A stretch of DNA of 64,000 nt from Malacoraja senta (GCA_038087875.1 CM075990.1:2048001-2112000); one strand, 5' to 3'; shown: positions 293 through 63,676, numbered from the stretch's first letter. Notes: generated by a model from the sequence alone, not told the origin. Made by a program: numbers and translations.

Positions 293-1551
293 AGTGCTGG
301 AGTAACACAGCGGGTCAGGCAGCATCTCTGGAGGAAAAGGACGGGTGATGTTTCGGGTGGCAACCCCTCTTCTAAACTAAAACTGAACAGTGTTCTGTGA
401 ACGATGGAGGATTGCTGAACTGTCCAGGTGGGCACGATGATACTCTAGTTGGTCAGGAGGTATCTGCCAAAAAGATTTGCTCAGTGAGGATAAAGTTCAA
501 AGCCGTATCTTGTTCCTAAAGGAAGCCTTGCTCAGAGTGTCACAAGGCAACCTACAGTGAGCTTAAAATGACTTTGTGTGAGGAAGATTTTCTTTTCTTT
601 GGACAGCTTCTACACATGACCATAGTGCTCCCTGACATTTCAGCAAGATAATAGCTCAATTTATTACCTTGATATTAAGGATTCCTAGCTCGGTTAGTTC
701 TCCAAAGATGATTCAATGTCAGGTTATTTATTAAGTAGTTGAAGGTCAAGGATTGCAGAAATTCACCGTGGGTTTATGAAAGGAAAAAGTGCGTAATGAT
801 TACTGTGGTTCATTGAGGCTGCAGCTCGTAGAATAAAGGACAGAACCATGGATAGACACAAAAAGCTGGAGCAACTCAGCGGGTCAGACAGCATCTGGCG
901 AAAAGGAATAGGTGACGTTTCGGGTCGAGACCCTTCTTACCCAACAGAACCATGGATTTGTGTATTTAGTAGTAGACGCAGGTACTGATCTCTGCACCAT
1001 CAATGGGATCGACAAGAGGTACTGCCTCAAAATGGCAGCCAATATCGTCAAAGACCCACCCAACCTCCCAAGGTCAGGGGTGATCTTACAGAGGTGTATA
1101 AGATCATGAGGTGAATAGATAGGGTAGATGCACAGAATCTTTTATCAACAGTAGGGGAACCGAGAACCAGAGGTGAGAGTGGAAAGATTTACTAGGAACC
1201 TGAGGGGTAACTTTTTTCACACCAGGTGGTGGGTCTACGGAATGAGCTACCAGAGGAGGTAGTTGAGGCAGGTGCAATAACACCATTTAAAAGGCATTTG
1301 GATAGGTACATGGATAGGATAGGTTTAGACGGATGGAAGTGCAGGGAATGGGGGAATATGGATCATGTACAGGCAGATGAGATCGCTTGAACTTGGCATC
1401 ATGTTCGGAACAAACATTGTGGGCCGAAGGGCCCGTTCCTGTGCTGTACTGTTCTATGTTCAATGTAAGTATGTGCAGTTGGTCTCTTAACATGGCTTCC
1501 CACCCCTTTGGTAGTCAGTTTGCCCTTCTCAAGTCGTGCAACAATTTCTCC

Positions 1552-1983
1552 GGATATTTCGCTTGGGCAGCTTACATCCCCAGCGGTATGAGTTGATTTC
1601 TCTCACTTCAAGTAGCCCTTGCATCCTCTATCTCTCTCTCCGTCCCTCCCCCACCATAGTCGTAGTACGTGTTTCACTGTTGTCCTGTTGCGTTTCACCG
1701 TCTGTACAACTCGCTGTCACCGACCCAACAGCCAACAATGGACCATTGTGGGCTCCACCTTTCCATGATCAGCGTTGCTTTTTGCACATCTTTCATTCAT
1801 TTGTCCAAAGTACTGTCTATATCCCTCGTTTCCCATTCCCCTGACTCTCAGTCTGAAGGAGGGTCTCGACCCGAAACGTCGCCTATTCCTTCTCTCCAGA
1901 GATGCTGCCTGACCCGCTGAGTTACTCCAGCTTTTTTGTGTCTATCTTCGGTTTAAACCGGCATCTGCAGTTCCTTCCTGCAC
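1552..1983 (+). mobile_element. Penelope-like element 3' remnant with hammerhead-like terminal repeat
   Basis: Encodes IFRLGSLHP, matching the end of the GIY-YIG region at 10090-10356. Followed by CTGAAGGAGGGTCTCGACCCGAAACGTC (1853-1880) and the AGATGCTGCCTGACCCGCTGAGTTACTCCAGC repeat. Confidence 0.7.
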
Positions 1984-2572
1984 AATTCCACCTATCCATT
2001 CTCTTCCATCCTGTAACCAGATTGAACAGCAACAGAAAATGTTGGTGAAATAGTCTAAAACCTTGATTCCATTCATCATGTATGTAACTAGTCTAAAGAC
2101 AAGCTCCTGCCTTTGTTGTCTGGCTGGCTTGTTCCTTCTAAGTTCATAACTTCATTGGTTATAGGAGCAGAATTAGGCCATTCGGCCCATCGCGTCTACT
2201 CCGCCATTCAATCATGGCTGATCTATCTTTCCCTCTCAACCCCATTCTCCTGCCTTCTCCCCATAACCCCTGACACCCGTACTAATCAAGAATCTATCAA
2301 TCTCCATCTTAAAAATATCCATTGACTTGGCCTCCCAGCCGTTGGTGGCAATGAATTCCACTTCCGTGAATGTGATTTGCAGAAGGATGTCGTTTTGCGG
2401 AATAAAGAATGGATCCATTAATCATTGCACGGAACACACAGGCACACCTACCTGTCACATTCCTTTCTTCCTTCCTTCTTGTTCCACGTAGGTAAGTAGA
2501 ACATTATGAGATGGGTGGGCAGGAGCAGAGACGAGGATTTAATGGGCTCCAATTGCTACAATTCTAATTAGA

Positions 2573-3575
2573 ACATAGATAGAACGTAGAACTGTACAGC
2601 ACAGGAACGGGCCCTTCGGCACACAACGTCCGTGCCGAACATGATGCCAAGTGAAACTCTGCACGTGATCCATATCCATATCCCTCCATTCGCTGCACTT
2701 CCATGTGCCTATCTAAAAGCCTCTTAAACACCACTATCGTATCTACCTCCACCACTACTTCTTGCAGCATGTTCCAGCCCCCACCACCCTCTGTGTTAAA
2801 CAACTTGCCCCACACAGCTCCATTAACCTTTCCCCCTCTCACCTTATCGCTACACCCTCTAGTGTTGGACATTTCCACCCTGGGAGAAAACTGACTGTCT
2901 ACCCTATCTATGCCTCTCATAATTGTATACACTTCTATCAAGTCTCCCCCCAACCTCAGACGTTCCAGAGAAAACAATCCAAGTCTATCCAACCTCTCCT
3001 TGTATCTGAAAGCGTCTAATCCAGACAGCATTGTGGTAAACCTCCTCTGCACCCTCTCCAAAGCCTCCACATCCTTCCTGTAATGAGGTGACTAGAAGTG
3101 CACGCAATATTCCAATTGCAGCCTAACCAAAGTCCTATAGATCTAGCATCACGACTTCCTGACTCTTCCAGTAATGGAGGCAAACATACCATACACCTTC
3201 GTTACCACCCTACACACTTGTGCCGCCATCTTCAGTGAGCTATGAACTTGCACTCCAAGATCCCCTTGTTCATCAATGCTGTTAAAGGTCTTGCCACTAA
3301 CTGTATACTCTCATCTTTCACTCAAACTCCCAAAGTGCAACACCTCATTCTTTCTCAGGTTAAACTCCATCTGCCATTTCTCTGCCCATTTCTGCAGCTG
3401 ATCAATATCCCACTGTATCTTCTGACAGCCTTCCTCACTGTCTGCAACTCCTCCAATGTTGGTGTCATCAGCAAACTTACCAACCCACCTGTATTTATGT
3501 CCGTCATTTACATATTTCACAAACATATTTCAGGACCCATCACAGATCCCTGCGGAAACCTCCATTGGTCACAGA
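2573..3575 (-). mobile_element. CR1 LINE ORF2 3' fragment (degenerate RT C-terminus)
   Basis: Peptides KFADDTNIGG..WAEKWQMEFN and LERVQRRFTTML..LGLFSLER..GDLIEVY; frameshifted; CR1 3' UTR. Confidence 0.9.
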
Positions 3576-9892: not shown

Positions 9893-10985
9893 TGACGTCC
9901 TACGAGATCCCACCACTTATCCCATCTTCCCATCTCCATCCATTTCCACCTTCCGCAGGGAAGGTTCCCTCCGCAACTCCCTGGTAGACATCCCTTCCCA
10001 ACCAAACCTTCCCCTCCCGCAGGAGATTTAACACCTGTCCCTTTACCTCCTCTTTTGTCAACGTCCAGGCAGTCCTTCCAGGTGAGACCATGGTTCATAT
10101 GCACCTCCCCCAATCTCATCCACTGCATCCAGCATTCCTGTTGTGGCCTCCTGTACATCAGCGAGATCAAGCATACACTCGACGACCGTTTTGCCGAAAA
10201 CTTGTGCTCGGACTGCTGGATTGCCCAGTTGCTAAACATTTTAATTCCTCTTCCCATTCCCACACTGACCTTTGTGTCCTGGGCCTCTTCCACTGTCAGA
10301 GTGAAGCCACACACAAATTGGAGGAACAGCACCTCATATTCCACTTGGGCAGCTGACAACCCAGCGGTATGAACATTGACTTCTCCAATTCTAGGGAACC
10401 TCTAACAACCCCTATCCCCCTCCTCTTTCTCCCCCAAACCTTCTCTTTCTTCTCTCTGCCCCCCACCCCTCCTCACCCCCATCCCCATTCCCTTCTCCCC
10501 ATATCAAAGGATATGGGGAGAAGGTAGGCACAGGTTACTGATTGTGGATGATCAGCCATGATCACTATGAATGGCGGGTGCAGTGTCGAAGGGCCAAATG
10601 GCCTCCTCCTGCACCTATTTTCTTTCTATGTGCTGCATTTGGACTCACACCGATTTCTCCCCTCCCCCCTCCTCCCACATTCCTTCCTCTAGCTTCACAG
10701 CTTGCAATTCTGCAATCCTTTTGTCTCACGCCTTCTGTTTTTATCTCTGGCCTCTGTTCCCAAACATCTGCCTACTGAACCGCCCCTCGCCTATATTCAC
10801 ATTGTCTACCTCTCCTCGCTTCTAGTTTTCTTGCTCTCCTCCCCCACAATCAGTCTGAAGAAGGGTTCCAACCCGAAATGTCACCTGTCCATGTTCTCCA
10901 GAGAGGCTGTCGGACCCGCGGAGTTACTCCAGCACTTTATGTCCTTTTGTGTAAACCAGCATCTGCAGTTCCTTGTTTCTACCCT
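9893..10985 (+). mobile_element. Penelope-like element remnant: GIY-YIG endonuclease region plus terminal repeat
   Basis: Frameshifted peptides LRDPTTYPIFPSP..FRREGSLRNSLV, FICTSPNLIHCI..CGLLYISEIKHTLDDRFAENL, PVAKHFNS..HSHTDL..KLEEQHLIFHLGS. Ends in the CTGAAGA..GAAA repeat at 10855-10882. Confidence 0.8.
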
Positions 10986-16650: not shown

Positions 16651-18074
16651 AGTCTCTTCGGCCTACCGAGTCTGCTCTGACCAGCGATTACTGAATTAAA
16701 TTAAAAAGTCATAAACATCGTGGTAAACCTCTAGACTAAATGCAATCTGCATTATTGATCCACAGAAATGGGTTTGAATTTCACATCAGCATTCATTACA
16801 TTTAAATCCTTCATTAAATAACTCTAGATTGAAAAAGAAATAAGCTAATATTCAAACCGCGACCTTGAAACTGTTGGGTTTTGTCCAAACACATCTGTCT
16901 AATGTCCAAAAGGACACAGAGTGCTGGAGTAACTCAGCGGGTCAGGCAGCATCTCTGGAGAACATGGATGGTTTGGGCCGGGACCCTTAAAGTCATAGTG
17001 TCATAGTGCCATATAGCTTGTAAACGGGTCCTCCAGCCCAATTCGTCCATACCGACCAACATGCCACTTGCACGCATTTGACCCATATCCCTCTAAACCT
17101 TTCCTATCCATGATTCTGTCCAAATGTCCAGAAGAATGTCTCCAGTCTAAAGACGGGTCTCGACCCGAAACGTCACCCATTCCTTCTCTCCAGAGATGCT
17201 GCCTGTCCTGCTGAGTTACACCAGTTTTTGTGTCCATCTTCAAATGTCTATTAAATCTTATTATTGTCCCTGCCTCTGCTACCTCGTCTGGCAGCTCGTT
17301 CCATATGCCTACCACCCTCTGTGTGTAAAAAGTCGTCCCTCGGGTTCCTATTAAATCCCCCCCCCCCCCCCTCACCTTAAACCTATGTCCTCTGGTTCTT
17401 GATTCCCCTACTCTGGACAAAAGACTGTGCATTTATCTATTCCTCTTATGATTTTATACACCTCTATAAGATCACCCCTCATCCTCCTGCAAGCAATAGA
17501 GCCCTAGCCTGCCCAACCTCTCCCTATAGCTCAGGCACTCAAGTCCTGGCAACATCCTCGTAAAACCCTTCTTCAGATTAATGCCTAGCACTACCCTACA
17601 CACAAGGGACAATTTACAATCTTTACCTAAGCCAATTAACCTACAAACCTGCACGTCTTTGGAGTGTGGGAGGAAACCAGAGCACCCAGAGAAAACCCAC
17701 ACAGGTCACGGGCAGAATGTAAAAACTCCCTACAGACAGCACCCATAGTCAGGATCAAACCCGGGTCACTGGCGCTGTGAGGCAGCAACTCTACCGCAGC
17801 GCCACTGTGCCACCCAAGTCCTATGGGAACAAAATCTTCCGTCCCTACTGTGTAAGGGAAGGAGATCAGAATACACGTGAACACTCACTCGGGGAAGCAC
17901 CCATCAGCAAGTGACAAGCATCGTGCTAAACCGCTAGACTATCTGTTATCTGCATTATTGATCCACAGAAATAGGTTTGAATTTCACATCAGCACTTAAT
18001 CAATTTCAATTTGTCATTAAATAAGTCTGAAATTTAAAAAAAAGAAGCTAATATTCAAAAGGTGACCATGAAGC

Positions 18075-19866: not shown

Positions 19867-21484
19867 GGACCCTGAGAGTTATAGAGTCATACCTGGGGGA
19901 GGGGCGGGGGGAGGGGAGGTTTTGCTAACAGTGGGAGGTTTGAATGTTCTTGTATGGGACCCAGCGAAGGTTAGAAGACAAGGTAAAGAAGGTCAGGCAA
20001 TCAGTGTAGAAGGGACCTGATGTATTAACATGTGACTTGTGCAGAAGACGTGACATTTTAAGGTGAAAGAGCTTAATTGTCATGTTTAGAGACTGAGGAA
20101 TAATTAAAAGATATTAACCACAGGCTACATTGGGCATTAGATGGATTAGACAGGCTTGGATGGTTATCTCCAGAACACCAGTGATTGAGGGGAGAGATGA
20201 TGGAGGTGTATAATCGTGAGAGGCATAGATAGGGTAGATAGTCAGCACTTATTTTCTCAGGATGGAAAAATTAAATACTAGAGGTCGTAGCTTGAAGGTG
20301 TGTGAGGCAAAGTTTAACTGGGATGTGTGGGGCAAGTTTTTGTTACACGAGGGTTGGGTTGTCTGGAACGTGCTGCCAGGGATGGTGGTGGAGGCAGATA
20401 CAATAGTAGCGTTTAATAGACTTTTGGATAGACAAATGGATATACAGGGAGATGGAGGGATATGGATTTTGTGCAGGCAGATAAGGGCTAGTTTTGGCAT
20501 CATGTTCGGCTCAGACATTGCGGGCCGAATGGCCTGTTCCTATGCCACGCTGTTCCATGTTCCATATTGTCCTTTGTCATTGGCAGTTGAAAGTAAAGTC
20601 CAGTCAACTAGATTTGGGAAGAGACCTGGAGATTGAACATGTTGTGATTGTAGACACAAAAAGCTGGAGTACCTCAGCGGGACAGGCAGGCAGCATCACT
20701 GGAGAGAAGGAATGGGTGACGTTTTGGGTCGAGACCCTTCTTCAGATGTCTTGACCCGAAACGTCACCCATTCCTTCTCTCCAGAGATGCTGCCTGTCCC
20801 GCTGAGTTACTCCAGGGAGGGAATTTTGGAGATGAGATGTCTGCTGGATGAACATCTTGAGGAAACTCTCTCCGTTCTGAGTGAGGGCAAGTGAGACCAG
20901 TTGATTTCAGGAGAGATTGTTTGAGGATGGGATACTCAGTGCCTGGCTGGTAAATCATGGAATCCTTTTATGGACTAGCTGTAATTGTTTATATTGGGGA
21001 GAAAGAAAATATTTCTTTGCGTACGAATGAATGGCTTCATATAAATATTATTTCATTCCCAAGCCGTGTCTAACGGCAATGGTTCTGATGTTGGCTCAGG
21101 CCTGAACACCACCAGCTCTTTGGTTCCAGCTTCATATACAATATATTATCAGCAGTGAGCCCACGCAGTCTGTATCAACGACTATCATAACATTTACAGC
21201 GTGGAAAAAGGATCTTCGACCCAACGCCCACACCGGCCAACATGTCCCATCCACACTAGTCCCACCTGCCTGCGTTTGGCCCATATCCCTCCAAACCTGT
21301 CCTGTCCATGTGCCTGCCTAACTGTTTCTTAAAAGTTGGAATTGTCCCAGCACCAACTACTTCCTCTGCCAGCTTGTTCCATACACCCACCACCCTTAGT
21401 GAGAAAAAGTTATCCCTCAGATTCCTATTAAATCTTTTCCCCTTCACCTTAAATCGTTGTCCTCTTAAGAGACATTTGGACAGG

Positions 21485-22105
21485 TCTTCTTCTTCTGTCG
21501 TGTGTCTTTAAGACCTGCAGCTCCGTTGAGGCGAGCCAGGCCAACGTGTCATCGTCGAGGTCAATCACACCTCGTTCACCATTCGGTGGCCGGTGTTGGG
21601 GGCAACTGGTGACTATGTGTGGGCTCCACTGTCTGTGTTGGGTCCCCACACTCGCGGGAGGCACTCGCTGTCCACGAGGCCCCACCTCTTCATCGCTACT
21701 CCATAGCGTCCGATGCCTGTCCTCAAGCGGTTGAGGGTTGTCCACTGCTTTCGGGGCAGGTCCTGGCCAGGGACGTCCATGGGGTCATTGATGTACTGGT
21801 GTAGCCTAGATGGTTCCGCTGACTTCCACTGGTCTCTCCATCTCGTCTTGACCCAGGCGGCCTTAGAAGCGTCAGCCGGTGTTGTGCAGAGCAGCTCTTG
21901 GGCTTGCGTGGCAAAGGGGTGCCGTGACTTGAGGCGCACTTGTCGTGGTGTCTCTGTGACGATCTGATGGAGGAGGTGGGATTCACTGGTCTGTGCCTTT
22001 CGAGAGAGGGCCAGCGTGGCTGCTTCTGGTCTGATGTTGGCTGGGGCGATGCCAGTGAGGACGGGCAGTTGGTTTACTGCGGTGGCTCGTAGGCATCCGG
22101 ACCTA
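21485..22105 (-). mobile_element. Vingi/Ingi-like LINE 3' fragment
   Basis: GCLRAT..LPVLTGIAPANIR, RLKSRHPF, LPRKQWTTLNRLRTGIGR, C-terminal C..CG..QTVEHIVTSC zinc-knuckle-like motif, 3' ACACGACA(GAA)n tail. Confidence 0.7.
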
Positions 22106-22376
22106 CGCTTGGTCTCGCCGATGTAGAAAAGTTAGGAGAAGGGCCTCGAGCCGAAATGTCGCCCATTTCTTCTCGCCATAGATGCTGCCCCACCCGCTGA
22201 GTTTCTCCAGCATTTTTGTCTACCTTTGATTTTTCCAGCATCTGCAGTTCTTTCTTAAACAATAATACAACATATGCCTTTCAACTTAACAATGTTAATA
22301 ATTATAATATGTGATATGTTTTAGATTTGTATGCAGAGAAATATTCTCGTTGTTATTGTAGCTGTAGTTATTGCGA

Positions 22377-22481: not shown

Positions 22482-22523
<42 letters not shown>

Positions 22524-22850: not shown

Positions 22851-23551
22851 ACAGGCTTCTTTTCGAGGTTTCTTGCCCTGCTACAATCAGTCTGAAGGAG
22901 GGTCCCTAACCGAAACTTTGCTGATCCATGTTCCCCAGGGATGCTGCCTGGCCCGCTGAGTTAATCCAGCATTTTGTGTTTTATTTAAGTTTTCCAGCAT
23001 AGGTAGTTCCTTGTTCACTGACACCTTATTGTAACCCAAAACTTTCTTCCAAGGCATTCACCACTTTGTCAATTTAAAGAAAATATATTTTTTCCTATTG
23101 GACATGATATAGAAGGAGGATATTCGGCCCATCGAGTCTCTACCAGCTTCAGGAGCAGTGGCTTCTGTACCAATTATTCCTTGTACCCCATGTTTTAAAA
23201 TCCCCATCAACTCCTCTCAATTCTCCTGCCTCTCCACCAACTGCAACAGGAATTTACAGTGGCCAATTAACCGGCCAACCTGTATGTCGTTGAGATTGGG
23301 AAGAAACTGGAACACTCAAGAGAAACAGGGTGGCATGGTGGCGCAGCGGTAGAGTTGCTGCCTCACAGCGCCAGAGACTCCGGGTTCGATCCTGACTACG
23401 GGTGCTGTCTGCACATTCTCCCTGTGACCGAGTGGGTTTTCTCCGGGTGCTCCAGTTTCCTCCCACAACCCAAAGACGTGCAGGTTTGTAGGTGAATTTT
23501 CTTTTGTAGATTGTAAATTGTCCCTAGTGTGAAGGATATAGTGTTAGTGTA

Positions 23552-27286: not shown

Positions 27287-29260
27287 AGTTTGACCCTGAC
27301 TACGAGCGCTGTCTGTACGGAGTTTGCACGTTCTCCCCGTGACCTGCGTGGGTTTTCTCCGAGATCTTCGGTTTCCTCTCACACTCCAAAGACGTACAGG
27401 TTTGTAGGTTAATTGGCTTGGTATAAGTGTAAATTGTCCCTAGTGTGTGTAGGATAGTGTTAATGTGCGGGGATCGCTGGTCGGTGTGGACTCTGTGTTT
27501 TTTCCCTGAATCTCTAAACTAAACTAAACTAAATTCATTCTAGTGAATTATTCCAGGGCTAAAAGATTAAACTGTGCAGAAAGGTTCAGCAGCTAATGCT
27601 GGCAAGCTGTGTGTAGAAGAGTAAGAGATGATCTAGAGACAGACACAAAATGCTGGGGTAACTCAGCGGGTCAGGCAGCATCACATAGAACCATAGAGTG
27701 ATACAGCATGGAAACAGGCCGCGGGACTTGCCCACACCGGCCAACATCCCCATCTGCACGTCCCACCTGCCTGCATTTGGCCCTTATCCATCAAAACCTG
27801 CCCTATCCATGTACCTATCTAAATGTTTGTTAAACATTATGATAGTACCAGCCTCAACTACCTCCTCCGGCAGCTCGTTCCATACACCCACCACACTTTG
27901 TGTAAAAAAAAAAATGACCCCTCAGGTTCCTATTAAATCATTCCTCCCTCAACCTTCTCGATTCCCCTACTCTGGGTAAAGACACTATGCGCATACCCAT
28001 CTATTCCTCCAGAGTTTCAATTTTGCCAAACTGACATGGATCAACTAATATGCTGCAATCTCTGCTAGGTCAGACACACTAAGATAACACAATTCATCTC
28101 CTGGATAACATTGACAAACCATAAAGTCCTAGATTGAAATAAAATGAACTGCAGATGCTGGTTTATACCAATTATAGGCACAAGGTGCTGGAGTAACACA
28201 GCGAGACATGCATAGAACATAGAAAAATAGGTGCAGAAGGAGGTCATTTGGCCCTTCGAGCCAGCACCGCCAATCAATATGATCATGGCTGATCATCTAA
28301 AATCAGTACCCTGTTCCTGCTTTTACCCCATATCCCTTGATTCCTTTACCCTAAGAGCTAAATCTAACTCTCTGTTGAAAACGTCTCTGGAGAACATGGA
28401 TACGTGACGTTTCAGATCTGAAGAAGGGTCTCGACCGAAACGTCACCTATCCACGTTCTCCAGAGATGGTGCCTGACCCGCTGCGTTACTCGCACTTTGT
28501 GTTTATCGAAACGTCACAGAGCTGTCGAGTCGCAGACCCAACGCCCATTCTGGGCTAGTCCCACTATGACCCCAAAATGGTATTTGATGATTGCGTAATG
28601 GAGGGAGAATTATAAATGATAATCCCATTCTGTGTTCAGTGTAACATATTTTGATTTAGATCCAGACAGTTAAAGTTACTTGAAAGTTAGAGGCAAGATA
28701 TTGAGATGTGAATCCAGTGAATGCCTCTTTATACATGGCAGGGTGTAAATGATATAAAATGAAGGCCCTTCACAACAAGAAGCCACGGAGTGTGAGAGGG
28801 ATTGTCAGTTTGTTGTTGGGTCACATCATTTAACAGTCAAGTGTTGAGTGTTTTACTGTCATATGTCCCAAAACCTAATTGAGACGTACAGAACAGTGAA
28901 AGGCTTGGATAGAGTGGATTTGAAGAGGATGTTTCCATTAGTGGGGGAGTCCAGAACGACAGGTCAGAGCCTCAGAATTAAAGGAGGTTCTTTTAGGAAG
29001 GAGATGAGGAGAAATTTCTTTATTCAGAGGGTGGTGAATTTGTGGAATTATTTGCCACAGAAGGCTGTGGAGGCCAAATTAGTGGATATTTTTAAGGCAG
29101 AGATAGATAGATTCTTGATTAGTGCGGGTGTCAGAGGTTATGGGGAGAAGGCAGGAAAATGGGGTTAGGAGGGAGAGATAGATCAGCCATGATTGAATGG
29201 CGTAGACTTGATTGGCCGAATGGCCTCATTCCGCTCCTGTCACCTATGACCTTATGACCT

Positions 29261-34859: not shown

Positions 34860-35595
34860 CTGAAGAAGGGTCCTGACCTGAAACGTCACCTATCCATGTT
34901 CTCCACAGATGCTGCCTGACCCGCTGAGTTAAGGGCCTGTCCCACTTGGGCGTCATTTGCAGTTCATTTACACTACATCATTTACGCGTGCATTACGAGT
35001 ACATGGCGAATGGTGAGGCGTGGTGGCGTAAGTAGTGACGCGCGGTCGCGCACCAGGATTTTAGGATTCACAAAATCTTCACGCGCCACCTGCGTGACGC
35101 GCAAATGACGCCCAAGTGGGACAGGCCCTTTACTCCAGCACTCTGTGAAACGTCACCTACCCATGTTCTCCACAGATGCTGCCTGACCCGCTGAGTTACT
35201 CCAGCACTCTGTGAAACGTCACCTATCCATGTTCTCCACAGATGCTGCCTGACCCGCTGAGTTACTCTGGCACAGTTGTACTTCTGTGCTTTGTAAGCTA
35301 TACGGAACCACACTATAAATGATAAGGTAGACCAAAATGCTGGAGAAACTCAGCGGGTGCGGCAGCATCTATGGAGCGAAGGAAATAGGCAACGTTTCGG
35401 CCCGAAACCCTTCCGGGTTTCGGCCCGAAACGTTGCCTATTTCCTTCAGGGTTTTGGCCCGAAAGGTTGCCCATTTCCTTCGCTCCACAGATGCTGCCTG
35501 ACCCGCTGAGTTACTCCAGCACTCTGTGAAACGTCACCTACCCAAGTTCTCCACAGATGCTGCCTGACCCGCTGAGTTACTCCAGCACTCTGTAT
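34860..35595 (+). repeat. Tandem 66-bp units of the Penelope-derived terminal repeat
   Basis: Unit GAAACGTCACCTA(C/T)CCATGTTCTCCACAGATGCTGCCTGACCCGCTGAGTTACTCCAGCACTCTGT at 34880, 35147, 35213 and 35528. Confidence 0.9.
34932..35129. mobile_element. PIF/Harbinger-type MITE
   Basis: Perfect 29-bp TIR AGGGCCTGTCCCACTTGGGCGTCATTTGC; TTA TSD splitting the host motif GCTGAG-TTA-CTCCAGCA. Confidence 0.92.
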
Positions 35596-37009
35596 CGTTA
35601 TTACTCACATAAAGCAACGTGATTTCCGTGTGCCGTTGGATTTAGTGCACTGTTCATCACCCTTTGCAACCCGTTGCTGATGAAGGGCGTGTACCTTCAG
35701 GGAGTAATCTCAACATCTGTGGCCATCCAGTGCTTCGTGCCTATCGTTGGCAAAAAACAACATCTGCAGCTCTTTGTTTCGACAGAGAATCTTGCAAATT
35801 GCAAAATATAACAAAGGCCGGGCACAGTGGCGCAGTGACAGAGTTGCTGCCTTACACCGCTTTCAGTCCTAGAGACGCGGGTTCGATCCCGACTACGGGT
35901 GCTGTACGGTCTGTATAGAGTTTGTACGTTCTCCCTGTGACCTGCGTGGGTTTTCTCCGAGATCTTCCGTTTCCTCCCACACTCCAACAATGTACAGGTT
36001 TGTAGGTTAATTGGCTTGGTATGAATGTAAATTGCCCCTATTGTGTGTAGGATAATGTTAATGTGAGAGGTTTGCTGGTCAGTGCGGACTCAGTGGGCCG
36101 AAGGGCCTGTGTCCGCTCTGTCTCTAAACGAAACTAATTTGATTGAATTTTTTGGGGAGATTTTAGTTATTCATTTGAGTTTAGAGATACAGCATGGAAA
36201 CAGGCCCTTCGGCCCACTGAGCCCACACCCACCATCAATCGCCCACTAGTTCTGTTATCCCACTTTTACATCCACTCCCGACACACTAGGGGCAATTTAC
36301 AGAGGGCCAATTAACCTACAATCCCACACGTCTTTGGGATGTGGGAGGAAACCAGAGCGCCCGGAGAAAACCCAGGACAATGTTAGTGTGCGGGGATCGC
36401 TGGTTGGCGCGGACTCGGTGGGCCTGCTGTGCGCTGTATCTCTAAACTAAACCAAAGTAAATTGCTTTGTAATTGACAGTGTGCTGGGAGGTGGTTGGGT
36501 GAAGAGTTCAGGAATATTTTGAGCCTGTGCAAGATTGATGGTGAATAATTCCTGTTGACAACAGGAAGGAAGATGGTGCAGCAAAGGCTCAACTATTCCA
36601 ACAACGTGACCTTGACCCGAAGCATCTCATGCTTTCCTGTGGAGAGACCACCACCCAGAATCAGTAGGACCTCTTGCTCCAGAGATAGGTCTTCACTTAA
36701 TCTAAGGGAAACAACCTAATGGAAAGCAGCCATTGCTTAGGTCACCCACCAGGAATGAGCATGTCTGAACTATTCCTCCCAACAGTAAAACAAACTTAAC
36801 CACACAGATTGAGATCTAAAGAGTTTGCTGACTCCCCTCAACCTCTCCCCAAGGAAGATAAACACCAATGAGTTTAGTTTAGAGATACAGCATGGAAACA
36901 GGCCCTTCGGCCCACATTCCATGTAGCTCATTCCATATACCTACCATCATTTGTGTCAAGATGTTGCCCCTCGGGTTCCTATTAAATCTTGTTCCCCTCA
37001 CGTTAAAGG

Positions 37010-39960: not shown

Positions 39961-41149
39961 TGTGTCCAAGCCCTTAACAATCTCAGACAGCACCTGTAGT
40001 CAGGATTGAACCTGGGTCTCTGGCTGTGAGGCAGTGACACTACCGCTGCGATATTGCGCTGCATGAAACCCATCTTGCTGCGATTTAGTTTGAAAGATTA
40101 TTTACTGGGTATCAGTTGCAGCAAAATATTTCAACTGAACCTCTGTTAAACTGGGACAGAAAAAATGCACGAGCTTCTGGCAAAACAGGAAGCTAAAACT
40201 GGAAACGAAACTGGTATGGAATGTTCAAATTCTTCATCCCACCTGTGGGTAGCTCGCTGCGATACATAACAAGTCACAAGCGCAATAGCGAGTAGTCAGG
40301 GTGATGAAAGCCCTGAGCCGATGTTGTTGCAAAGGCTGCCTGGATGCTGCCAATAACTTGCTTGCTCCCTGTTCTCTGTGCGGCCCACATAGACTTTTTA
40401 AGGCCTGCAGCGCGGGAGCTGTTTGATTTGTCCATGGCACGACCATAAATGGAGTCTAATCTCTGCAAGTAGACAGCAGCAGAGCTGTTCACTTCAGAAG
40501 AGGAATGGGCCCTGGGATATTTCCAGTTGTTTTCCCGCAGTGGGGAATTTGCCCTCCCCACGAGAAATACTCATCGCTGAAAAATCTTATCTCCACAAAC
40601 AGCAGCAAGGACATCCAGAGTGCGAAATAAAACAGACGCAAAGTCCTGGAGTAACTTAGTGACTCTTGTAGATACAAAATGCTGGAGTAACTCAGCGGGC
40701 CAGGCAGCATGTCTGGAGAGAAGGAACCGGTGACATTTCGGGTCGAGACCCTTCTTCAGACTGTTAGTGACTGTTGCATTTGCTCCATTAGCTCATGAGT
40801 TTTCTCATCCAGAGGCTCAGTGGCACAGCGGTAGAGTTGCTGCCTCACAGCGCCAGAGACCCGGGTTCGATCCTGACTACAGGTGCTGTCTGTACGGAGA
40901 TTGTACGTTCTCCCCATGACCTGTGTGGGTTTTCTCCAGGTGCTCCTGCTTCCTCCCACTTTCCAAAGACGTACAGGCTTGTAGGTGAATTGGCTTCTAT
41001 AAATTGACCCCAATGTATAGGATAGAACTAGTGAATGGGTGATCATTCATCAGCGCCGATTCGGTGGGACAAAGGGTCTGTTCAACTCTGTATCTCTAAA
41101 ATTAAAAATGCAGCGGGACAGGCAGCATCTCTGGAGAAAAAGGATTGAT

Positions 41150-41177
41150 GACGTTTCGGGTCGAGACCCTTCTTCAG
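41150..41177 (-). ncRNA. Minimal hammerhead ribozyme-like core (best-conserved copy)
   Basis: Minus strand reads CTGAAGA-A-GGGT(CTCG)ACCC-GAAA-CGTC: both catalytic boxes, stem II, palindromic ACGT helix III and a GUC triplet. Activity not shown. Confidence 0.6.
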
Positions 41178-42704
41178 GTTGTCTGAGGAAGGGTCTTGTT
41201 ATGAAACGTCACCTATCCATATTCTCCAGTGATGCTGCCTGACCGCTGAGTTACTCCGGCACATTATTTCTTTGCTCAGTTCTCACAACCCAGCGTAACA
41301 CGTTCAATACTCTAACTCTCCCCTGTGTGAAATTAAACTGTCCAACGTTACTGTGCCCATGCCAACCAAGATGCCCCATCTACTCTAGTCCCACCTGCCC
41401 GCATTTGGCCTGCATCCCTCCAAACCATTCCTATCCATGCACCTGTCTAAATGCCATAAGGTCATGTGAAAGAGGCAGAATTAGGCCATTCGGCCCATCA
41501 TGTCTACTCCGCCATTCAATCATGCCTGATCTATCTCTCCCTCCTAACCCCATTCTCCTGCCTTCTCCCCATGACCTCTGACACTCATACTAATCAAAAA
41601 TCTTTCTATCTCTGCCTTAAAAAGATCCATTGACTTTGTTCCCACAGCCTTCTGTGGCAAATAATTCCACAGATTCACCACCCTCCGACTAAAGACATTT
41701 ACATGTATCTTCATCTCCAGCCTAAAAGAACGTCCTTTAATTCTAATGCTATGACTTAGACTCCTAGACTCTCCCACTAGTGGAAACATCCTCTCCACAT
41801 CCACTCAATCCAAGCCTTTCACTATTCTGTATGTTTCAGTGAGGTCTCCTGCTCAACATGTCTTTTAGCTATTTTGCTCAGTTTTGGTCTCCCTGTTGTA
41901 GTAAAGGTGCCAAGCTGGAAAGAGAGTCGAGAAAATTTATGAGGATGTTGCCAGATCTCGAGGGCCTGAACATTGAGGTATACGGAAAGGTTGGGCAGCC
42001 AAGGATTTTATTCTTTAGATTTCAGAGATGCAGTGTGGAAACAGGCCCTTCGGCCCACTTTACCCGCGCTGACGAGTGCTCACCTCATACACGAGCACTA
42101 TCCTACATATCAGGGACAGATTACAACCTTACAAGCTGTACTGTTAAACTCGAAACTCTAAACATATGTCTCGATAGATGCTATAACTTTGGAAACTAAG
42201 GATTGGGGACATTTCACTGCAATAAATATGCTGCAGAAATTACTTTTGTGCTGTGGAGGGTTATTGTCAAGTCATCTGTGCATGAAGAGTCAAAATCATA
42301 GTCACACAGTGTGCAAGAAGGCCCTTCGGCCCAACTTGCCCATACCGACCAACAATCCCCATCTACACTAGTCCCACCTGCCTGTGTTTGGCCCATATCC
42401 CTATAAACCTGTCATATCCATGTACCTGTCTAAATGTTTCTTAAACGTTGTGATAGTCCCTGCCCCAACTACCTCCTCTGGCAGCTCGTTCCATACACCC
42501 ACCACCCTTTGTGAAAAAAAGTTACCCCTCAAGTTCCTAATAAACCTTTCCACCCTCACCTGAAATCTATGTCCTCTGGTTCTCGATTCTCCTACTCTGC
42601 GCATTCACCCGATCTAGTCCCTAAAAAACATTTATTTTCTTTCATTAGTTTGCTTTACTTCTGCCTTGAATGAAGATCATTTTACCTGACCTACACCACC
42701 AGGC

Positions 42705-48258: not shown

Positions 48259-49499
48259 ATGGACGGGGCTTGCTGAGAGGGGTTGCTGAGAGGACCAAAG
48301 GTTGATTTGCTGCTCCTGCTCAGAGCAAGTCTTATCTGAGGTCTGGCTTTCCTTCATAGAGCAATGAATTTCCACTGGACTCCAATCCCTGGGGCTGACC
48401 CTAATCAATCAACATCAGCTTGTACGGACACAGATAGGAACGGGAAATGGTCCCGCTGAAAATATCCCTGATAAACCGGCGGCACGGTGGAGCAGTGGTA
48501 GAGCTGCTGCCTCACAGCGCCAGAGACCTGGGTTTGATCCTGACTACGGGTGCTGTCTGTACGGAGTTTGTATGTTCTCCCCGTGACCGCGTGTGATATT
48601 TCTACGAGATCTTCGGTTTCCTCCCGCACTCCAAAGACGTGCGGGTTTGTAGGTTAATTGGCTTGGTGTAAATGTAAAGACTGCCCCACTGAACTCATCT
48701 CCATCTTAATCCCAATCTATTTCCCTTCATCTTCCTGGTCCAGTCTCTTCTGACGCCCTCTGGCGACCTACCCTCCACAGCCTCCAAACCTATCTGCCCC
48801 CTCCCCAAAATCCACAGGCAGGGCTGCCCCAGGAGATCCAGCGTTCCCGCCTGCTCCTGCCCCACTAAACCCCTCTCCACATACCTCGATTCCATCCTAC
48901 CCCACCCTCCCCACCCCGTCCAATCCCCTCCGAACCTGAGTCCGAACAAGGGTCCCGACCCGAAACGCACCTGTCCATGTTCTCCAGGGATGCTTCCTGA
49001 CCCGCTGAGGTTTACTCCAGCACTTTGTTTTCCTTTTTGTGTAAACCAGCATCTGCAGTTCCTTGCTTCTCCAAAATAACGACAAGGCTTGAACACATGC
49101 AGAGCAAAAGAAGAACTTGGAAATAAATAGTTCTCTCTTCAGTTACAAAGAAATTAAAATATTGTGGATAAGCATACGGTATAAGTTAAAGTTCTTTATG
49201 AATATTTTGCAGTTTGTTTAGTTTTGAGATACAGCGTGGAACAGGCCCTTCAGCCCACCGAGTCCGCAACCGACCAGCGATCCCCACACACTAGCACTAT
49301 TCTAATCACACTAGGGACAATTTTACACTTTCCAAGCCAACTAACAGACAAACCCGTACGTCTTTGGAGTGTGGGAGGAAACCGAAGATCTCGGAGGAAA
49401 ACCCTCACAGGTCACGGGAGAAACGGCAAACTCCGTACAGACAGTCAGGATGGAACTTGTGTCTTCCCGGCGCTGCAGCGCTGTAAGGCAGCAACTCTA

Positions 49500-54506: not shown

Positions 54507-54706
54507 NNNNNNNNNNNNNNNNNNNNNNNNNNNNNNNNNNNNNNNNNNNNNNNNNNNNNNNNNNNNNNNNNNNNNNNNNNNNNNNNNNNNNNNNNNNNNN
54601 NNNNNNNNNNNNNNNNNNNNNNNNNNNNNNNNNNNNNNNNNNNNNNNNNNNNNNNNNNNNNNNNNNNNNNNNNNNNNNNNNNNNNNNNNNNNNNNNNNNN
54701 NNNNNN
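54507..54706. other. Assembly gap (200 N)
   Basis: Run of exactly 200 n. Confidence 1.
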
Positions 54707-57635
54707 CCCGTAGGCAGGATCGAACTCGGGTCTCTGGTGTTGTAAGGCAGCAACTCTACCACTGAGCCACTGTGTATTAGATTACAACAGGCATAGATAT
54801 GGGAACTTGTTTCTCATGGGGCGAGGGGTAACAAAAACATGAGGAAGGAATGTTAAAGGGGCAGATATGGAATTCAAAGCAATCATGATTTTTTATTGGC
54901 ATTTGGAGAGTTAAATAGACATGGCATCGAAGGATATGGTCATAATGTGGGCTAATGTAATTGGTGTAGATGGATACAAAGGTTGGCAGGGATGTGGTGG
55001 GCCGAAGGGCCCGTTTGTGTGCAGTTTCAATCCATCACCCTCTGTTCAGTGTTTGTACTGATTTGATCTGAAATGGAGACAAGATACATCCATTTCATTC
55101 TGAAGAAGGGTCTCGACCTGAAACGTTACCTATTTCCTTCGCTCCATAGATGCTGCCTCACCCGCTGAGTTTCTCCAGCACTTTTGTCTACCTTGGATAC
55201 AAGATATAGTTTACTGTGGGTTAAATCGACTTCCAATCCCATCGTGAGAATGGAATCTCCCTGCACACAACACCTTGTACACTAACGCTATCCTACACAC
55301 CAAGGACAATTTTACAATTTTGCCAAAGCCAATTAACCTACAAAATATACCTCTGTGAGATTGAATCTTTAGACTGTAGAGATATACAGTGGAAACAGAC
55401 CCACTAAGTCCGAGCTGGCCAGCAATCACCACAAACACTAGCACGATCCTAAACACTAGGACAATTTACAATTTGAACTTTGTCGGACTTCAATGCTATA
55501 TTTTGCACTAGCTGTTGAACCCTTTATTGTTTATCTGTACACTGTGGACGGCTAGATTGTATAGTCTTTTTTGACTGGATAGATGCAAACCAAAGCCTTT
55601 CACTGTACATTGGTGCACTTGACAATAATAAACTAAACTAAACTCAACTAAAAGGTTGTGAGGCAAATGGACATGAATGTTAACGAGGGCCTGAGTCAGG
55701 GAAACCTTCTGAACCTGGCACTTTCCTTTGTAAACTAAAGCAACGTTTACTCCGACCATCGATCACCCGTTGACACGAGTTCTATGTTATCCCACTTTCC
55801 CATCCTACGCACTAGGGACAATTTTATGGAAAGACAATTAACCTACAAACCTGCGCGTCTTTGGGATGTGTGAGGAAACCGGAGCACCCGGAGGAAACCC
55901 ACGTGGTCACGGGGGAATGTGCAAACTCTGCACGTAAAGAGCACCCGGCGTTAGGATCGAACCCGGGTCTCCGTGGCTGTGAATATTGATTTCTCTAACT
56001 TCAAGTAACCCTTGCATCCCCTCTCTCTCCATCCCTCCCTAATCCAAGTTGTTGTACAATTGTCAAAGTCATCTTGTAACTCGTTTTCACTTAACAAACA
56101 GTGGCCTGTTTCCTTTATCATCGTTACCTTTTTATTTTTTATTTTTTTATTTATCATTACACTTATGGGCGCCTTTCAAAGACTCTCAAGGACGCCTTGC
56201 AAATAAGCAGATTACAAAACATATAAGCAGAATAAAAAAAAAAAAAATAGTAGGGACATCAACAACATCACAATACACAAATTAAGGACAGAATTCATTC
56301 TAAAGGCACAAAAAAGAAAATCAGAAACACAATTTGCATATGCACAATTTGCACAAACACTTTTTGCATATCTTTCATTCATTTGTTCTACATCTCTCTA
56401 TATCACCGTCTATATGTCCCGTTTCCTTTCCCCTGAATCACCGAAGAAGTGTCTCGACCCAAAAGTGTCTCGACACCCATTCCTTTTCTCCAGAGATGTG
56501 TCTGACCCGTTGAGGTACTGCAGCTTTTTGTCTATCTTCGGTTTAAACCAGCATCTGCAGTTCCTTCCCACACAATACTACTACTGTGTTTGATTAAACA
56601 GCAGTTAACCACTTTCCCCACACTTTTGTGTACAGATTGCATGGATAATCTGGTTAAAACAAACACCAGTGAGAATGTGGCAATTAGCATACATGCCTTG
56701 TGCAAATTGTCAAACCCACGCTGTTACAAGAACATATGAACTTCAAACGCAAACAACACCCAAGGTCAGGATCGAACCAGGGTTGTTGGTGCTGTGAGGC
56801 AGCAGCTCTACCAGTAGGTTGTCACTTAGTACACAACAATGTCCCATAAACAGCAACGAGAAGAATGACTAGACAACCTGATTCATAAGTTCATAAGTGA
56901 TAGAAGAAGAATTAGGCCATTTGGCCCATCAAGTCTACTCCGTCTGCTCAAGTCTACATAGCTGATCTATCCATAAGGTCATAAGGTCATAAATAATAGG
57001 AGTAGAAAGGCCATTCGGCCCATCAAGTCTACTCTGCCATTCAATCATGGCTGATCTATCTCTCCTAACCCCATTGTCCAGCCCTCTCCCCATAACCTCT
57101 GACACCCGTACTAATCATCTATCTACCTTAAAAATATCCATTGATTTGGCTTCCACAGCCTTCAGTGGCAATGAATTCCACAGATTCACCACCCTCTGAC
57201 TAAAGTATTGCTCGGGGGATTGGTTAGGACATTTTAAAAACTGCTGTGGGAAGTTTAGAGTGGAAGTGTCATCCATTCCCTCTCTCCAGAGATGCTGAGT
57301 TACTCCAGCTTTTTGTGTCTCGTCAGGAAAGAATATTGGTTCATCTTCTCGATCAAAGGACAGTGATTCTGAGGCAGTTTAGTTTAATTTAGTTTAGAGA
57401 TACAGGGTGGAAATGGGCCCTATGGCCCACTGAATCTGTGCTGACCAATGATTCTCCAACTATCCTACACATTAGGGACGATTTATAATCTTTACTGCAG
57501 CCAATTAACCTACATACCTGTAACGTCTTTGTAGTGTGGGAGGAAACCGGAGCTCCCGGAGAAAAACCCACACAGAGAGAATGTACAAACTCTGTACAGA
57601 CAGCACCCGTAGTCAGGATTGAACCCGGGTCTCTG

Positions 57636-60520: not shown

Positions 60521-60632
<112 letters not shown>

Positions 60633-61690: not shown

Positions 61691-61889
61691 ACACAAGGTT
61701 CTCGATTGAAGTTCACTCTAGGACACAATCTAGTTCACTATTTCATATTACTGTCAAATGTATATTTTAATTGGTAGAAAATGTTACCCAATTTCTTATT
61801 CAGAGAAGAATTTGGATGGTTGGAAACCCCAATTGTTTTTATCAATCAGCACAATAGCACAATAGTAGAGGAATATCCTAAGACTGAGG

Positions 61890-62545
61890 AGGACACAGGA
61901 AGGCAAATACAATGTTATCATTCATTTCAAGAGGACTACAATACAGAAGCCAGGATGTAATGCTGAGGCTTTATAAGGCACTCACCAGAACACTTTTGGA
62001 GTATTGTGAGCAATTTTGGGCCCCATTTCTGAGGAAGGATGTGCTGGAGTTGGAGAGGGTCCAGAGGAGGCTTATGAGAATGATCCCAGGGATGATTGAG
62101 AACATATGATGAGCGTTTGATGGCTCTGGGCCTGAATTTGATGGAGTTTAGAAGGTATGAGGAGGTTTCTCACTGAAGTCTACCGAACAATGGTAGGCCT
62201 GGATAGCGTGGATGTGGAGAGGATGTTTCCACTAGTGGGAGAGTCTAGGACCAGAGGGCACAGCCTCAGAATAAATGGACGTAGCTTTAGAAAGGATATG
62301 AGGAATAATTCTTTCACAGTCAGAATGTGGGATTCATTACTGCAGACGACTGTGGTGGCCAAGTCACTGGGTATTTTTAAAGTGGAGATTGATAGGTTCA
62401 TGATTAGTAAGGGTGTTAAAGGTTATGGGGAGAAGGCAGGAGAATGAGGTTGAGGTGAAGAGATCGAGACATGAGTTGAATGGTGGAGGAGACACGATGG
62501 GCCTGATTCTGTTTCTATGTCTTATGATCATATGGTCTTATGACA
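61890..62545 (+). mobile_element. Old CR1 3' fragment
   Basis: MLSFISRGLQYRS..LEYCEQFWAP..LERVQRR; MFPLVGESRTRGHSLRI. Confidence 0.85.
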
Positions 62546-63676
62546 AGACATCAGCTTTCAAGGCAAATTGTGACAGAAAAACAGCACCAGAAATCTAGCG
62601 TTTAAGACAGGATGATGCTTTTAGATAGGAACATGGACATGCAGAGAATATGGATCATATGAGGTCAGTAGTATAACTTGGCATCGTGTTTGACACAGAC
62701 ATTGTGGGCCGAAGGGCCTCTTCCCGTGCTGTACTGTTCTATGTTCTGTCCCCACGGCTTTTAATGTAACATTTAAAAGGATGTTCTCTGTAATTGGTGT
62801 TTAAATAGTCCTGGGAATTGTCACTTATAATTGAGTTTTCTGCCATTTCATTAAAATGCTGTGACTTTCTGAATTTGTGATTGTCAACTCCTGCTGGAAG
62901 TGCCAGGGTTCACCTCTGATGCAGGTGCAGTATAACAGCCTTGGTGTGTTGTTCATTAGGGGTTGAGTTCCTGCACAGTGCCGCCCCACTCAGGGATGTT
63001 ATGCTGAGGCTTCACAAGGCGCTGATCAGTCAGCAGTTCTGGGCCCCATATCTGAGGGTGGATGTGCTGGCGTTGGAGAGGGTCCAGAGGAGGTTTGTGA
63101 GAATGATCCCGGGATGACTGGGTTAACATATGATGTGCGTTTGACAGCACTGGGCCTGTACTTCAATGCTTTAATGGTGTTTTTATTGCAAAGTGGTAAC
63201 ACAGTGAAATTCTTTTTGGTACAAATATACGGGCGGCAGGGTGGCGCAGTGGTAGAGTTGTTGCCTTCCAGCACCAGAGACACGGGTTCGATCCTGACTA
63301 TGTGTGCTTTATTGTATAGACTTCTCTAACTTCAAATAGCCCCTGTGTTTCCTCTCTATCCCCACTCCTTCTCAGTTCTCCCACCAGTCTTACTGTCTCC
63401 GACCACATTTTATCTCTGTCCCGTCCACTCTCCTGCCATCAGTTTGAAGAAGGGTCTCGACACGAAACGTCACCCATTCCTTCCCTTCAGAGATGCTGCC
63501 TCACCCGCTGAGTTCCTCCAGCATTTAGTGTCTACCCTGACTATAGGACTATGACCCTATGTCTCTATGACTGTATCTCAGCCATGATTGAATGGCAGAG
63601 TAGACTTGATGGGCTGAATAGCCTAATTCTGCTCCTAGAACTTGACATGACTTTATGACTATGACTCGATGACTCT

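What the first reader, a model, noticed from the sequence alone, without database searches (positions are those of the whole stretch)
914..63474. Dispersed minimal hammerhead-ribozyme-like motifs in a high-copy Penelope-derived repeat
Seen: the ubiquitous short repeat (..AGATGCTGCCTGACCCGCTGAGTTACTCCAGC..) is preceded by CTGAAGA-A-GGGTCTCGACCC-GAAA-CGTC. The best copy is 41150-41177 (-). Others with 1-3 changes: 914-940(-), 1853-1880, 10855-10882, ~17146-17174, 20718-20745(-), 28418-28444, ~31946-31972(-), 34860-34887, 40732-40759(-), 55100-55127, ~63444-63471. Stem II keeps pairing while changing sequence (GGGTC/GACCC, GGGTT/AACCC at 10863, GGGTT/GGCCC at ~35415). Two copies sit directly downstream of GIY-YIG remnants (1552-1983, 9893-10985). 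Established: CUGAnGA and GAAA are the hammerhead core boxes, and Penelope-like elements carry minimal type I hammerheads with a short palindromic helix III that are thought to act as dimers. Inference: this genome holds a very large family of hammerhead-bearing Penelope derivatives, some perhaps still able to cleave host pre-mRNA. Caveats: helix I is only 2-3 bp (GT/AC) and there is an extra A before stem II.
Basis: partly seen in the sequence, partly recalled or inferred. Interest (0 to 1): 0.72.

Follow-up and report, generated by a model that had tools for sequence, protein, structure and literature searches.

The report
Penelope retrotransposon minimal hammerhead relics
The repeated motif is the already described small self-cutting "hammerhead" RNA that Penelope-like jumping genes carry at their ends, here left behind as many mostly decayed copies in what looks like a shark or ray genome.

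Summary
The motif is real. It is the known minimal type I hammerhead (min-HHR) in the terminal repeat (pLTR) of a Penelope-like element (PLE), probably Neptune-type, in a cartilaginous-fish-like genome. The window holds 43 copies (5.8% of its length), 34 spanning the motif. It fits the published PLE consensus. PLE coding remnants adjoin five copies. Other PLE hallmarks are present: head-to-head inversions and an optional ~30-nt 3' tail. Three claims fail. Stem II shows no two-sided covariation here. Cleavage of host pre-mRNA is therefore unlikely. One extra observation: no copy starts or ends at the cut site, but 12 of 29 mapped 5' ends pile up within 8 nt at the hammerhead's 5' edge. This suggests uncleaved template RNA and a start site or reverse-transcription stop there. 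This scan reported the same kind before in other vertebrate, shark and ray-like genomes.

The parts
34860..34887 (+). Only copy meeting all tested min-HHR criteria (core, stem II with G-U at 10.1/11.1, palindromic stem III, 2-bp helix I); the repeat is interrupted downstream by a MITE
41107..41177 (-).
41181..41293 (+). Inverted partner copy; core intact, stem II broken
1552..1612 (+). Last ~20 codons of the PLE endonuclease, frameshifted
1613..1850 (+). Pyrimidine-rich 3' spacer between the endonuclease end and the hammerhead; public contigs bridge from it into the motif
1851..1984 (+). pLTR copy, long form with 3' tail; core has A9G
9899..10395 (+). Degenerate PLE coding remnant: linker (decayed Cys finger) and GIY-YIG endonuclease, with frameshifts
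10853..10974 (+). pLTR copy, long form; core intact, palindrome broken by CpG decay
48738..48899 (+). Fragment of PLE reverse transcriptase (N-terminal part) joined almost directly to a pLTR copy (internal deletion or chimera)
48941..49064 (+). pLTR copy, long form; core mutated
55984..56008 (+). Last codons of the PLE endonuclease, upstream of copy 56442
56442..56566 (+). pLTR copy, long form; core mutated
22104..22125 (-). Short inverted endonuclease piece (19 of 22 identical to the 10 kb remnant; 0 of 628 control pieces score as high), head-to-head with copy 22132
22132..22253 (+). pLTR copy, long form; core mutated
844..938 (-). Short-form copy starting inside the CUGA box, flanked by a 14-bp direct repeat (likely target-site duplication)
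40667..40761 (-). Short-form copy starting just 5' of helix I, with a 9-bp flanking direct repeat; core intact, palindrome decayed
17146..17244 (+). Short-form copy; G5A
20645..20815 (.). Head-to-head inverted pair (20645-20746 minus with G12A; 20748-20815 plus starting in stem II)
28382..28511 (.). Head-to-head inverted pair (28382-28420 minus; 28417-28511 plus, core intact, 1-nt deletion in stem II)
31639..31819 (.). Head-to-head inverted pair
31870..31972 (-). Short-form copy; CUGA box damaged
35147..35603 (.). Cluster of ~66-bp tandem units lacking the CUGA box, with an inserted inverted pair (35323-35443) of another subfamily
55099..55198 (+). Short-form copy; core intact, G-U at 10.1/11.1, 1-bp helix I
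63442..63544 (+). Copy with pyrimidine-rich upstream spacer; C3U
22891..23012 (+). Long-form copy; A9G
284..374 (-). Short-form copy in a T-rich simple repeat; CUGA box lost

Best explanation
The repeat is the 3' end (pLTR) of a Penelope-like retrotransposon with a C-terminal GIY-YIG endonuclease, probably Neptune-type. The motif is its minimal type I hammerhead. How it works: (1) SHOWN: motif and repeat sit 240-460 nt downstream of the endonuclease end, on the coding strand. (2) INFERRED from the known class: the zero-loop palindromic helix III (ACGU) can form only between two motifs, so cleavage after GUC/GUU needs a dimer, as in a transcript of tandem elements, and probably the element's protein. 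COMPUTED: a longer hairpin pairing the purine-rich 5' half with the bases around and after the cut site usually outcompetes stem II, which would keep the ribozyme off by default. (3) SHOWN: insertions have two 3' end classes about 30 nt apart, and 34 of 34 motif-bearing copies run across the cut site. INFERRED: reverse transcription starts at two internal sites on uncleaved RNA, as shown in vitro for the Anolis element. (4) SHOWN: most copies stop at or inside the hammerhead's 5' half, some as head-to-head inversions, some with flanking duplications. INFERRED: the cDNA runs off an RNA 5' end or stalls at the structure there, giving a SINE-like flood of 95-130-bp copies. (5) SHOWN for this window: after insertion the copies decay, with no detectable protection of catalytic positions, so nearly all are dead relics.
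For: Matches the published consensus NNN CUGANGAH G..C GAAAN-palindrome-NUH with a U-rich upstream flank. The closest listed architecture is the Acropora Neptune motif (4-bp stem II, 4-nt loop, CGUC) (PMC4209133 Fig. S3 and Table S1). The descriptor gives 3 loci against ~0 in shuffles. The remnant at 9.9-10.4 kb finds 47 relatives; 18 of 38 scanned carry a GIY-YIG hit at E<=0.01; the 5 named among 8 looked up are from rays and sharks. 54 full-length RT+EN relatives were found, 49 of 54 with the C-x(2-5)-C-xx-C linker that marks Neptune and Nematis (PMC8557442). Variation at the cut site stays compatible with the structure: position 17 is C or U in 32 of 34, and position 1.1 is A or G in 33 of 34, both able to pair with U2.1. 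There are six head-to-head junctions and two 3' end classes, both PLE hallmarks. No 5' or 3' end falls at positions 28-33, matching PMC11167929. Essential CpG positions differ from the majority in 24 of 118 cells against 18 of 122 at other CpGs (p=0.31); non-CpG core 14 of 219 against downstream 99 of 1094 (p=0.24) (39 of 43 copies, 4 duplicates dropped).
Against: No cleavage was tested. No two-sided change occurs in stem II in this window, so the fold rests on the match to the published class and on one-sided changes. The modelled dimer is far less stable than the minimum-energy cofold (-0.9 against -21.3 kcal/mol); nearest-neighbour energies ignore tertiary contacts. Rfam finds no hammerhead family. 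No full-length element of this family was recovered (no genome held; searches gave none). The clade call rests on a linker motif in ~45%-identical relatives, not on a tree. The selection tests have low power (39 copies).
Confidence: 0.87

Rival explanations
1. One reading: dispersed copies are active ribozymes that cut host pre-mRNA, alone or by pairing with another copy in the same transcript.
For: The family is enormous, so some complete copies must exist. One complete copy lies in this window. Copies 40759 and 41177 are 418 nt apart on the same strand, both with intact cores.
Against: 1 of 34 copies is complete, and that one has a G-U first pair and stem II probability 0.0 in its context. 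Copy 41177 has an inverted partner directly upstream that would pair with it. There is no sign of selection on the core and no strand bias (25 plus, 18 minus, p=0.36). Published min-HHR monomers are inactive and dimers weak; the Anolis one needs the ORF protein. No host exon was identified: 28 further ORFs gave only LINE-related or sub-threshold Pfam hits.
Confidence: 0.05
2. In this family the 30-nt stretch is kept mainly as an internal RNA polymerase II core promoter (initiator plus downstream element), with the hammerhead vestigial or secondary.
For: 5' ends pile up at positions -1 to +6 (12 of 29). The native upstream word TCAGT fits 5-6 of 6 letters of the human initiator BBCA(+1)BW (PMC5287114, listing only). 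At the published spacing (+18 to +29) 9 of 12 letters fit the MTE consensus (PMC8384218), against 0.29% of window 12-mers. Penelope has an internal promoter (PMC2377424).
Against: The tests are post hoc on short degenerate words. In D. virilis the start site lies 46 nt before a 75-nt intron whose end meets helix I, so not at the hammerhead. Most other PLE hammerheads in Fig. S3 lack this word at this place (by eye). The match to the hammerhead consensus is complete and explains the palindrome and the extra base, which a promoter does not. No capped-RNA data were seen.
Confidence: 0.05
3. The short repeat is an independent non-LTR retrozyme that spreads through self-cleaved circular RNA and tandem arrays.
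For: Retrozymes derive from pLTRs and occur in the one chondrichthyan sampled (bioRxiv 10.64898/2026.07.22.740005). A small tandem cluster exists at 35147-35603.
Against: The tandem units lack the CUGA box. No unit boundary lies at the cut site. Copies are dispersed monomers or inverted pairs, and five adjoin PLE coding DNA.
Confidence: 0.02
4. The hammerhead likeness is a chance reading of an arbitrary repeat sequence.
For: All copies descend from few masters, so the shuffle test counts one event many times; no covariation in the window.
Against: The motif sits exactly where PLEs carry it, on the coding strand, and fits every element of the published consensus.
Confidence: 0.01

Closest known systems
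Metazoan PLE minimal hammerheads, min-HHR (Cervera and de la Pena 2014, PMC4209133; dimer cleavage also Lunse et al., seen only as a citation in PMC6765202)
   Same: CUGAnGA core plus one extra base, G10.1-C11.1, GAAA-CG-UH with zero-loop palindromic helix III, short helix I, U/pyrimidine-rich upstream flank, position in the 3' pLTR after the endonuclease, most copies dispersed as single truncated motifs, some as close opposite-strand pairs.
   Different: A new host family: no chondrichthyan entry appears in the supplement text searched and read. Stem II (4 bp) and helix I (2 bp) are at the short end of the published range. Loop II is Y-N-[A/C]-G in 20 of 27 copies, with 5 more explained by CpG decay.
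Neptune-type PLEs (Arkhipova classification as summarised in PMC8557442); Acropora digitifera Neptune min-HHR
   Same: C-terminal GIY-YIG with upstream Cys linker in relatives, 5' truncation, inverted 5' partners, optional 30-40-nt tail.
   Different: Only fragments here; Nematis shares the linker and was not excluded by a tree.
Poseidon element PAc of Anolis carolinensis (PMC11167929)
   Same: Two 3' end classes downstream of the hammerhead, insertions that span the cut site, no ends at the cut site.
   Different: Different clade. In PAc the ORF starts inside the hammerhead; here the only ATG noted in the repeat opens a short frame, and the true ORF start was not located.
Non-LTR retrozymes (bioRxiv 10.64898/2026.07.22.740005; PMC7229834 listing only)
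   Same: Non-coding, hammerhead-bearing, pLTR-derived.
   Different: No tandem units with intact hammerheads here; copies look like truncated insertion products.

Membership tests
PLE min-HHR | Core boxes CUGANGA and GAAA, NUH cut site | tested here: met
   Majority of aligned copies; all 11 core bases intact in 7 of 34 copies; H17 is C/U in 32 of 34.
PLE min-HHR | Unpaired base between positions 9 and 10.1 | tested here: met
   A in 21 of 24 copies covering it; listed hallmark in PMC4209133.
PLE min-HHR | G10.1-C11.1 closing pair and a paired stem II | tested here: met
   G-C in 20, G-U in 3, unpaired in 1 of 24; stem II cells 88% paired.
PLE min-HHR | Palindromic 15.2/16.2 with no loop III | tested here: met
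   C-G in 15 of 24; 5 more are CpG-type U-G, 4 unpaired.
PLE min-HHR | Helix I of at least 2 bp | tested here: met
   G-U/A-C (or U-G) in copies that keep the native upstream bases; 2-bp examples in Fig. S3. Lost in most truncated copies.
PLE min-HHR | Compensatory changes within and between families | tested here: inconclusive
   0 of 4 stem II pairs with a two-sided change; score equals shuffles. 24 closely related, decaying copies cannot show it; no other family was obtained.
PLE min-HHR | Located in the pLTR downstream of a PLE ORF, sense strand | tested here: met
   Endonuclease ends about 240, 460 and 430 nt upstream of three copies; RT fragment before a fourth; protein P0008 reads through the same layout.
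PLE min-HHR | Self-cleavage as a dimer | not testable with these tools
   Needs an assay; folding favours an inactive hairpin.
EN+ Penelope-like element | Single ORF with RT and C-terminal GIY-YIG | tested here: inconclusive
   Only separate fragments in the window; a profile of 54 full-length relatives hits both the EN and RT fragments; no intact element recovered.
EN+ Penelope-like element | 5' truncation, inverted 5' partner, optional 30-40-nt tail | tested here: met
Neptune clade | C-x(2-5)-C-xx-C linker before GIY-YIG | tested here: inconclusive
   Decayed in the window (one Cys left); present in chondrichthyan relatives and 49 of 54 full-length relatives; shared with Nematis.
Neptune clade | RT phylogeny with reference clades | not tested
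   No named reference PLE sequences were in hand.
Non-LTR retrozyme | Tandem units each with an intact hammerhead; circular RNA | tested here: not met
   The only tandem units lack the CUGA box; circular RNA not testable.
Rfam hammerhead families | Covariance-model hit | tested here: not met
   No hammerhead family among the 5 matches at E<=1.

The most novel reading that the evidence does not exclude
In this family the hammerhead sits at the very 5' end of the element's own transcript, and its DNA doubles as the core promoter (initiator at the helix I strand, MTE-like element over stem II and GAAA). The RT initiates internally about 92 nt downstream and runs off the capped end, which would explain the flood of short solo copies and their sharp 5' edge. 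An alternative hairpin holds the ribozyme off until the ORF protein refolds it. Short and long 3' forms would then come from the upstream and the downstream pLTR respectively: long tail in 6 of 7 copies with native upstream sequence against 2 of 16 without, p=0.002, hand-classified, 23 of 43 copies.
Probability: 0.17. Interest if true: 0.55.

Novelty: new member of a known kind. Interest (0 to 1): 0.2.

Why it matters
As a class it adds little: PLE hammerheads and their mass dispersal were described in 2014, and this scan has logged them in other fish genomes. The function of the hammerhead in endonuclease-bearing PLEs is still open (PMC8557442). A family with very many copies gives a direct statistical test: where insertions begin and end relative to the cut site, and whether intact sense copies are purged from introns. 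The 5' pile-up at the ribozyme's edge and its link to the short 3' form, if they hold genome-wide, would show how PLEs make SINE-like debris and where their transcripts start.

Tried and rejected
No whole genome is held, so no genome-wide count. Rfam: no hammerhead hit; the miRNA-family matches are inverted-repeat junctions far below gathering scores. Exact-pattern scans found nothing in viral contigs or prokaryote genomes. The 9 metagenome stretches match only the ~21-nt pattern and are 59-66% GC, so chance. PLE protein scans of genome and viral contigs found no loci. A direct word-index homolog search with the degenerate remnant failed, and Pfam on the remnants themselves was blank; both were overcome through relatives. 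No RNA holder was listed, which says nothing about expression. All four laid runs were contigs, so RNA ends, strand and level could not be read. One search had a one-column error in helix I and is replaced. Target-site duplications: 8 of 43 copies have a shared flanking word of 8 nt or more against 3.5% in mismatched pairs, but at least three come from tandem or inverted neighbours; I accept only 844-938 (14 bp) and 40667-40761 (9 bp) as clear. A 3' splice acceptor reading of the pyrimidine tract plus CAG was considered. It was dropped because a U-rich flank is part of the published consensus, truncated copies share no upstream exon, and none of the 15 joints shown of 724 is a GT..AG skip to that site. 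Fold-back priming through the alternative hairpin does not fit the six junctions. Lunse et al. is not held and may already list this family, as may the closed supplements of the 2026 preprint.
Full report
Observation. An iterated profile built from the window finds 43 copies covering 3,718 bp. In alignment numbering the CUGAAGA box is 3-9, the extra A is 10, stem II is 11-14 with 19-22, GAAA is 23-26, CG is 27-28, and the cut would follow position 30. A generic minimal-hammerhead descriptor hits three loci against a mean of 0.02 hits in 200 shuffles. Because the copies share ancestry, this shows non-randomness, not independent origins. Rfam has no hammerhead match at E<=1.

What the repeat is. 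The frame at 10013-10369 finds 47 relatives among 1.84 billion proteins. 18 of the 38 I scanned have a GIY-YIG hit at E<=0.01. The five named ones among eight looked up come from two rays and two sharks, so the host is probably a cartilaginous fish (inference). One of them, used as query, gives 54 longer proteins, nearly all with RT or PLE-type domains. 49 of the 54 carry a C-x(2-5)-C-xx-C linker before the YIG motif, which PMC8557442 (passages) assigns to Neptune and Nematis. A profile of these proteins hits the window at 9900-10386 and 48801-48899. The endonuclease's last codons also lie upstream of copies 1853 and 56442, and a 22-nt inverted piece abuts copy 22132. So five copies adjoin PLE coding DNA, not two. 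On the 461-bp stretch 1540-2000, 241,377, 255,574, 23,236 and 19,871 contigs were laid from four public runs of three coded organisms, some bridging spacer and motif. These are counts of contigs, not copy numbers.

Comparison with the published class. PMC4209133 (main text parts 1-2 of 4; supplement file 2 parts 1-2 of 3) gives the consensus CUGANGAH, G..C stem II, GAAAN, palindrome, NUH, with a U-rich upstream flank. It names the base between 9 and 10.1 as a hallmark and lists 2-bp helices I. The window motif fits each element. The Acropora Neptune entry has the same 4-bp stem, 4-nt loop and CGUC. The paper also reports that most motifs are dispersed, truncated singles, that monomers did not cleave, and that dimers cleaved weakly. 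A search of that supplement file for shark, skate, Callorhinchus and Leucoraja found nothing (file 1 not searched). Literature searches returned no description of this family. Lunse et al. is not held, and the supplements of the 2026 retrozyme preprint (passages and sections 12 and 14 read), which sampled one chondrichthyan, are closed; either may cover it.

Of 34 motif-spanning copies, 7 keep all 11 core bases and 1 (34860) keeps the whole fold; 41150-41177 has no helix I. In 24 aligned copies no stem II pair has a two-sided change, and the covariation score equals the shuffled mean. Changes are one-sided. Some look like subfamily traits compatible with the fold (U-G at the fourth pair; C or U at position 17; A or G at 1.1; loop Y-N-[A/C]-G in 20 of 27). 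The name YNMG for such loops is recalled; one search is a listing only. Other changes are CpG decay. Two CpG dinucleotides overlap essential positions, and they differ from the majority in 24 of 118 cells against 18 of 122 at other CpGs; non-CpG core positions differ in 14 of 219 against 99 of 1094 downstream (four duplicate copies dropped; neither difference significant). Folding gives stem II probability 0.0 in four of six real copies (0.86 and 0.32 in the other two). For three subfamily majorities it gives 0.02, 0.34 and 0.0, with a cost of 5.3, 1.7 and 7.6 kcal/mol to keep stem II with an open core. The competing hairpin buries the cut site.

Insertion anatomy. No copy starts at positions 29-33 or ends at 28-33; starts fall 34 at 1-25, 2 at 26-49 and 7 at 50 or beyond. 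By hand, 12 of 29 ends not continuing into native upstream sequence lie between -1 and +6 (p=3e-6 against uniform over -30 to 60; duplicates collapsed). Caveat: the upstream spacer differs between subfamilies, so breakpoints just upstream are harder to see. 3' ends form two classes, near position 92 and near 123-130, the PLE tail. The long form goes with retained upstream sequence (6 of 7 against 2 of 16; post hoc; 23 of 43 copies classifiable). Six head-to-head junctions are present. PMC11167929 (parts 1-2 of 4) shows, for an Anolis PLE, two internal RT start sites that define the tail, uncleaved RNA as the main template, no reads ending at the cut site, and cleavage only with the element's protein. 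The window's anatomy agrees.

Mechanism. Most likely the motif is a dimer-dependent, protein-assisted ribozyme of the parent element (inferred). It was copied passively into very many truncated insertions made from uncleaved RNA (anatomy shown, template state inferred), and these now decay (shown here, low power). The 5' pile-up needs either an RNA start or a structural stop at the ribozyme's edge. An initiator-like TCAGT and a 9 of 12 fit to the MTE consensus at the published spacing make the first worth testing. These are post hoc matches, and the Penelope promoter lies further upstream (PMC2377424, passages).

Verdict. A correct catch of a known kind; new member, low interest. Earlier scan notes on other genomes reached the same filing. 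I had stated this reading before seeing them, and they are not used as support.

Noticed in passing
window 34929-35132 and 18858-19074; further ends at 11201, 22377, 43830: A MITE family with ~17-30-bp terminal inverted repeats beginning GGGCCTGTCCCA and 3-bp TTA/TAA flanks (PIF/Harbinger-like by recall). One copy splits the only complete hammerhead repeat; another sits at the 5' junction of copy 18766-18858.
   Followed up: partly
window 15904-16009 (-): Copy that appears to have lost stem II by joining the two GAA words, as expected from a reverse-transcriptase skip over a hairpin; the 28382-28420 copy may be the same. One or two cases only.
   Followed up: no
window 16866-16973 and 18729-18836: Two copies share flanks (95% over 108 nt, 1,863 bp apart): a local duplication, not independent insertions.
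   Followed up: yes
window 15544-15663 (-): Further weak endonuclease remnant joined to a SINE-like repeat, with no hammerhead after it.
   Followed up: partly
window 12474-13721 (+) and 47206-48408 (-): Open LINE-type reverse transcriptase frames of 415 and 399 aa (Pfam RVT_1); many CR1/L2-like fragments elsewhere, e.g. 23826-25161 (-) (family names recalled).
   Followed up: no
window 48500-48678 and about 40 other places: Another high-copy short repeat, probably the elasmobranch tRNA-derived SINE (name recalled); ARAGORN finds no tRNA gene.
   Followed up: no
window 18190-18493: Tandem array with a 38-bp period, neighbouring units 97-98% alike.
   Followed up: no
window 59800-60300: GC- and CpG-rich island (GC up to 0.65, up to 22 CpG per 200 nt) with no Pfam hit in three frames tested; possibly a host promoter or first exon.
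   Followed up: partly
window 54507-54706: Assembly gap of 200 N.
   Followed up: yes
proteins P0011, P0018, P0029, P0008: Public shark and ray gene models that contain PLE endonuclease pieces under host names such as 'mucin-2' or 'receptor-transporting protein 3-like'; P0008 is a mistranslation running through the spacer and hammerhead.
   Followed up: no
whole window: Rfam release 15 detects none of these minimal hammerheads even at E<=1, so standard annotation misses this known class.
   Followed up: no
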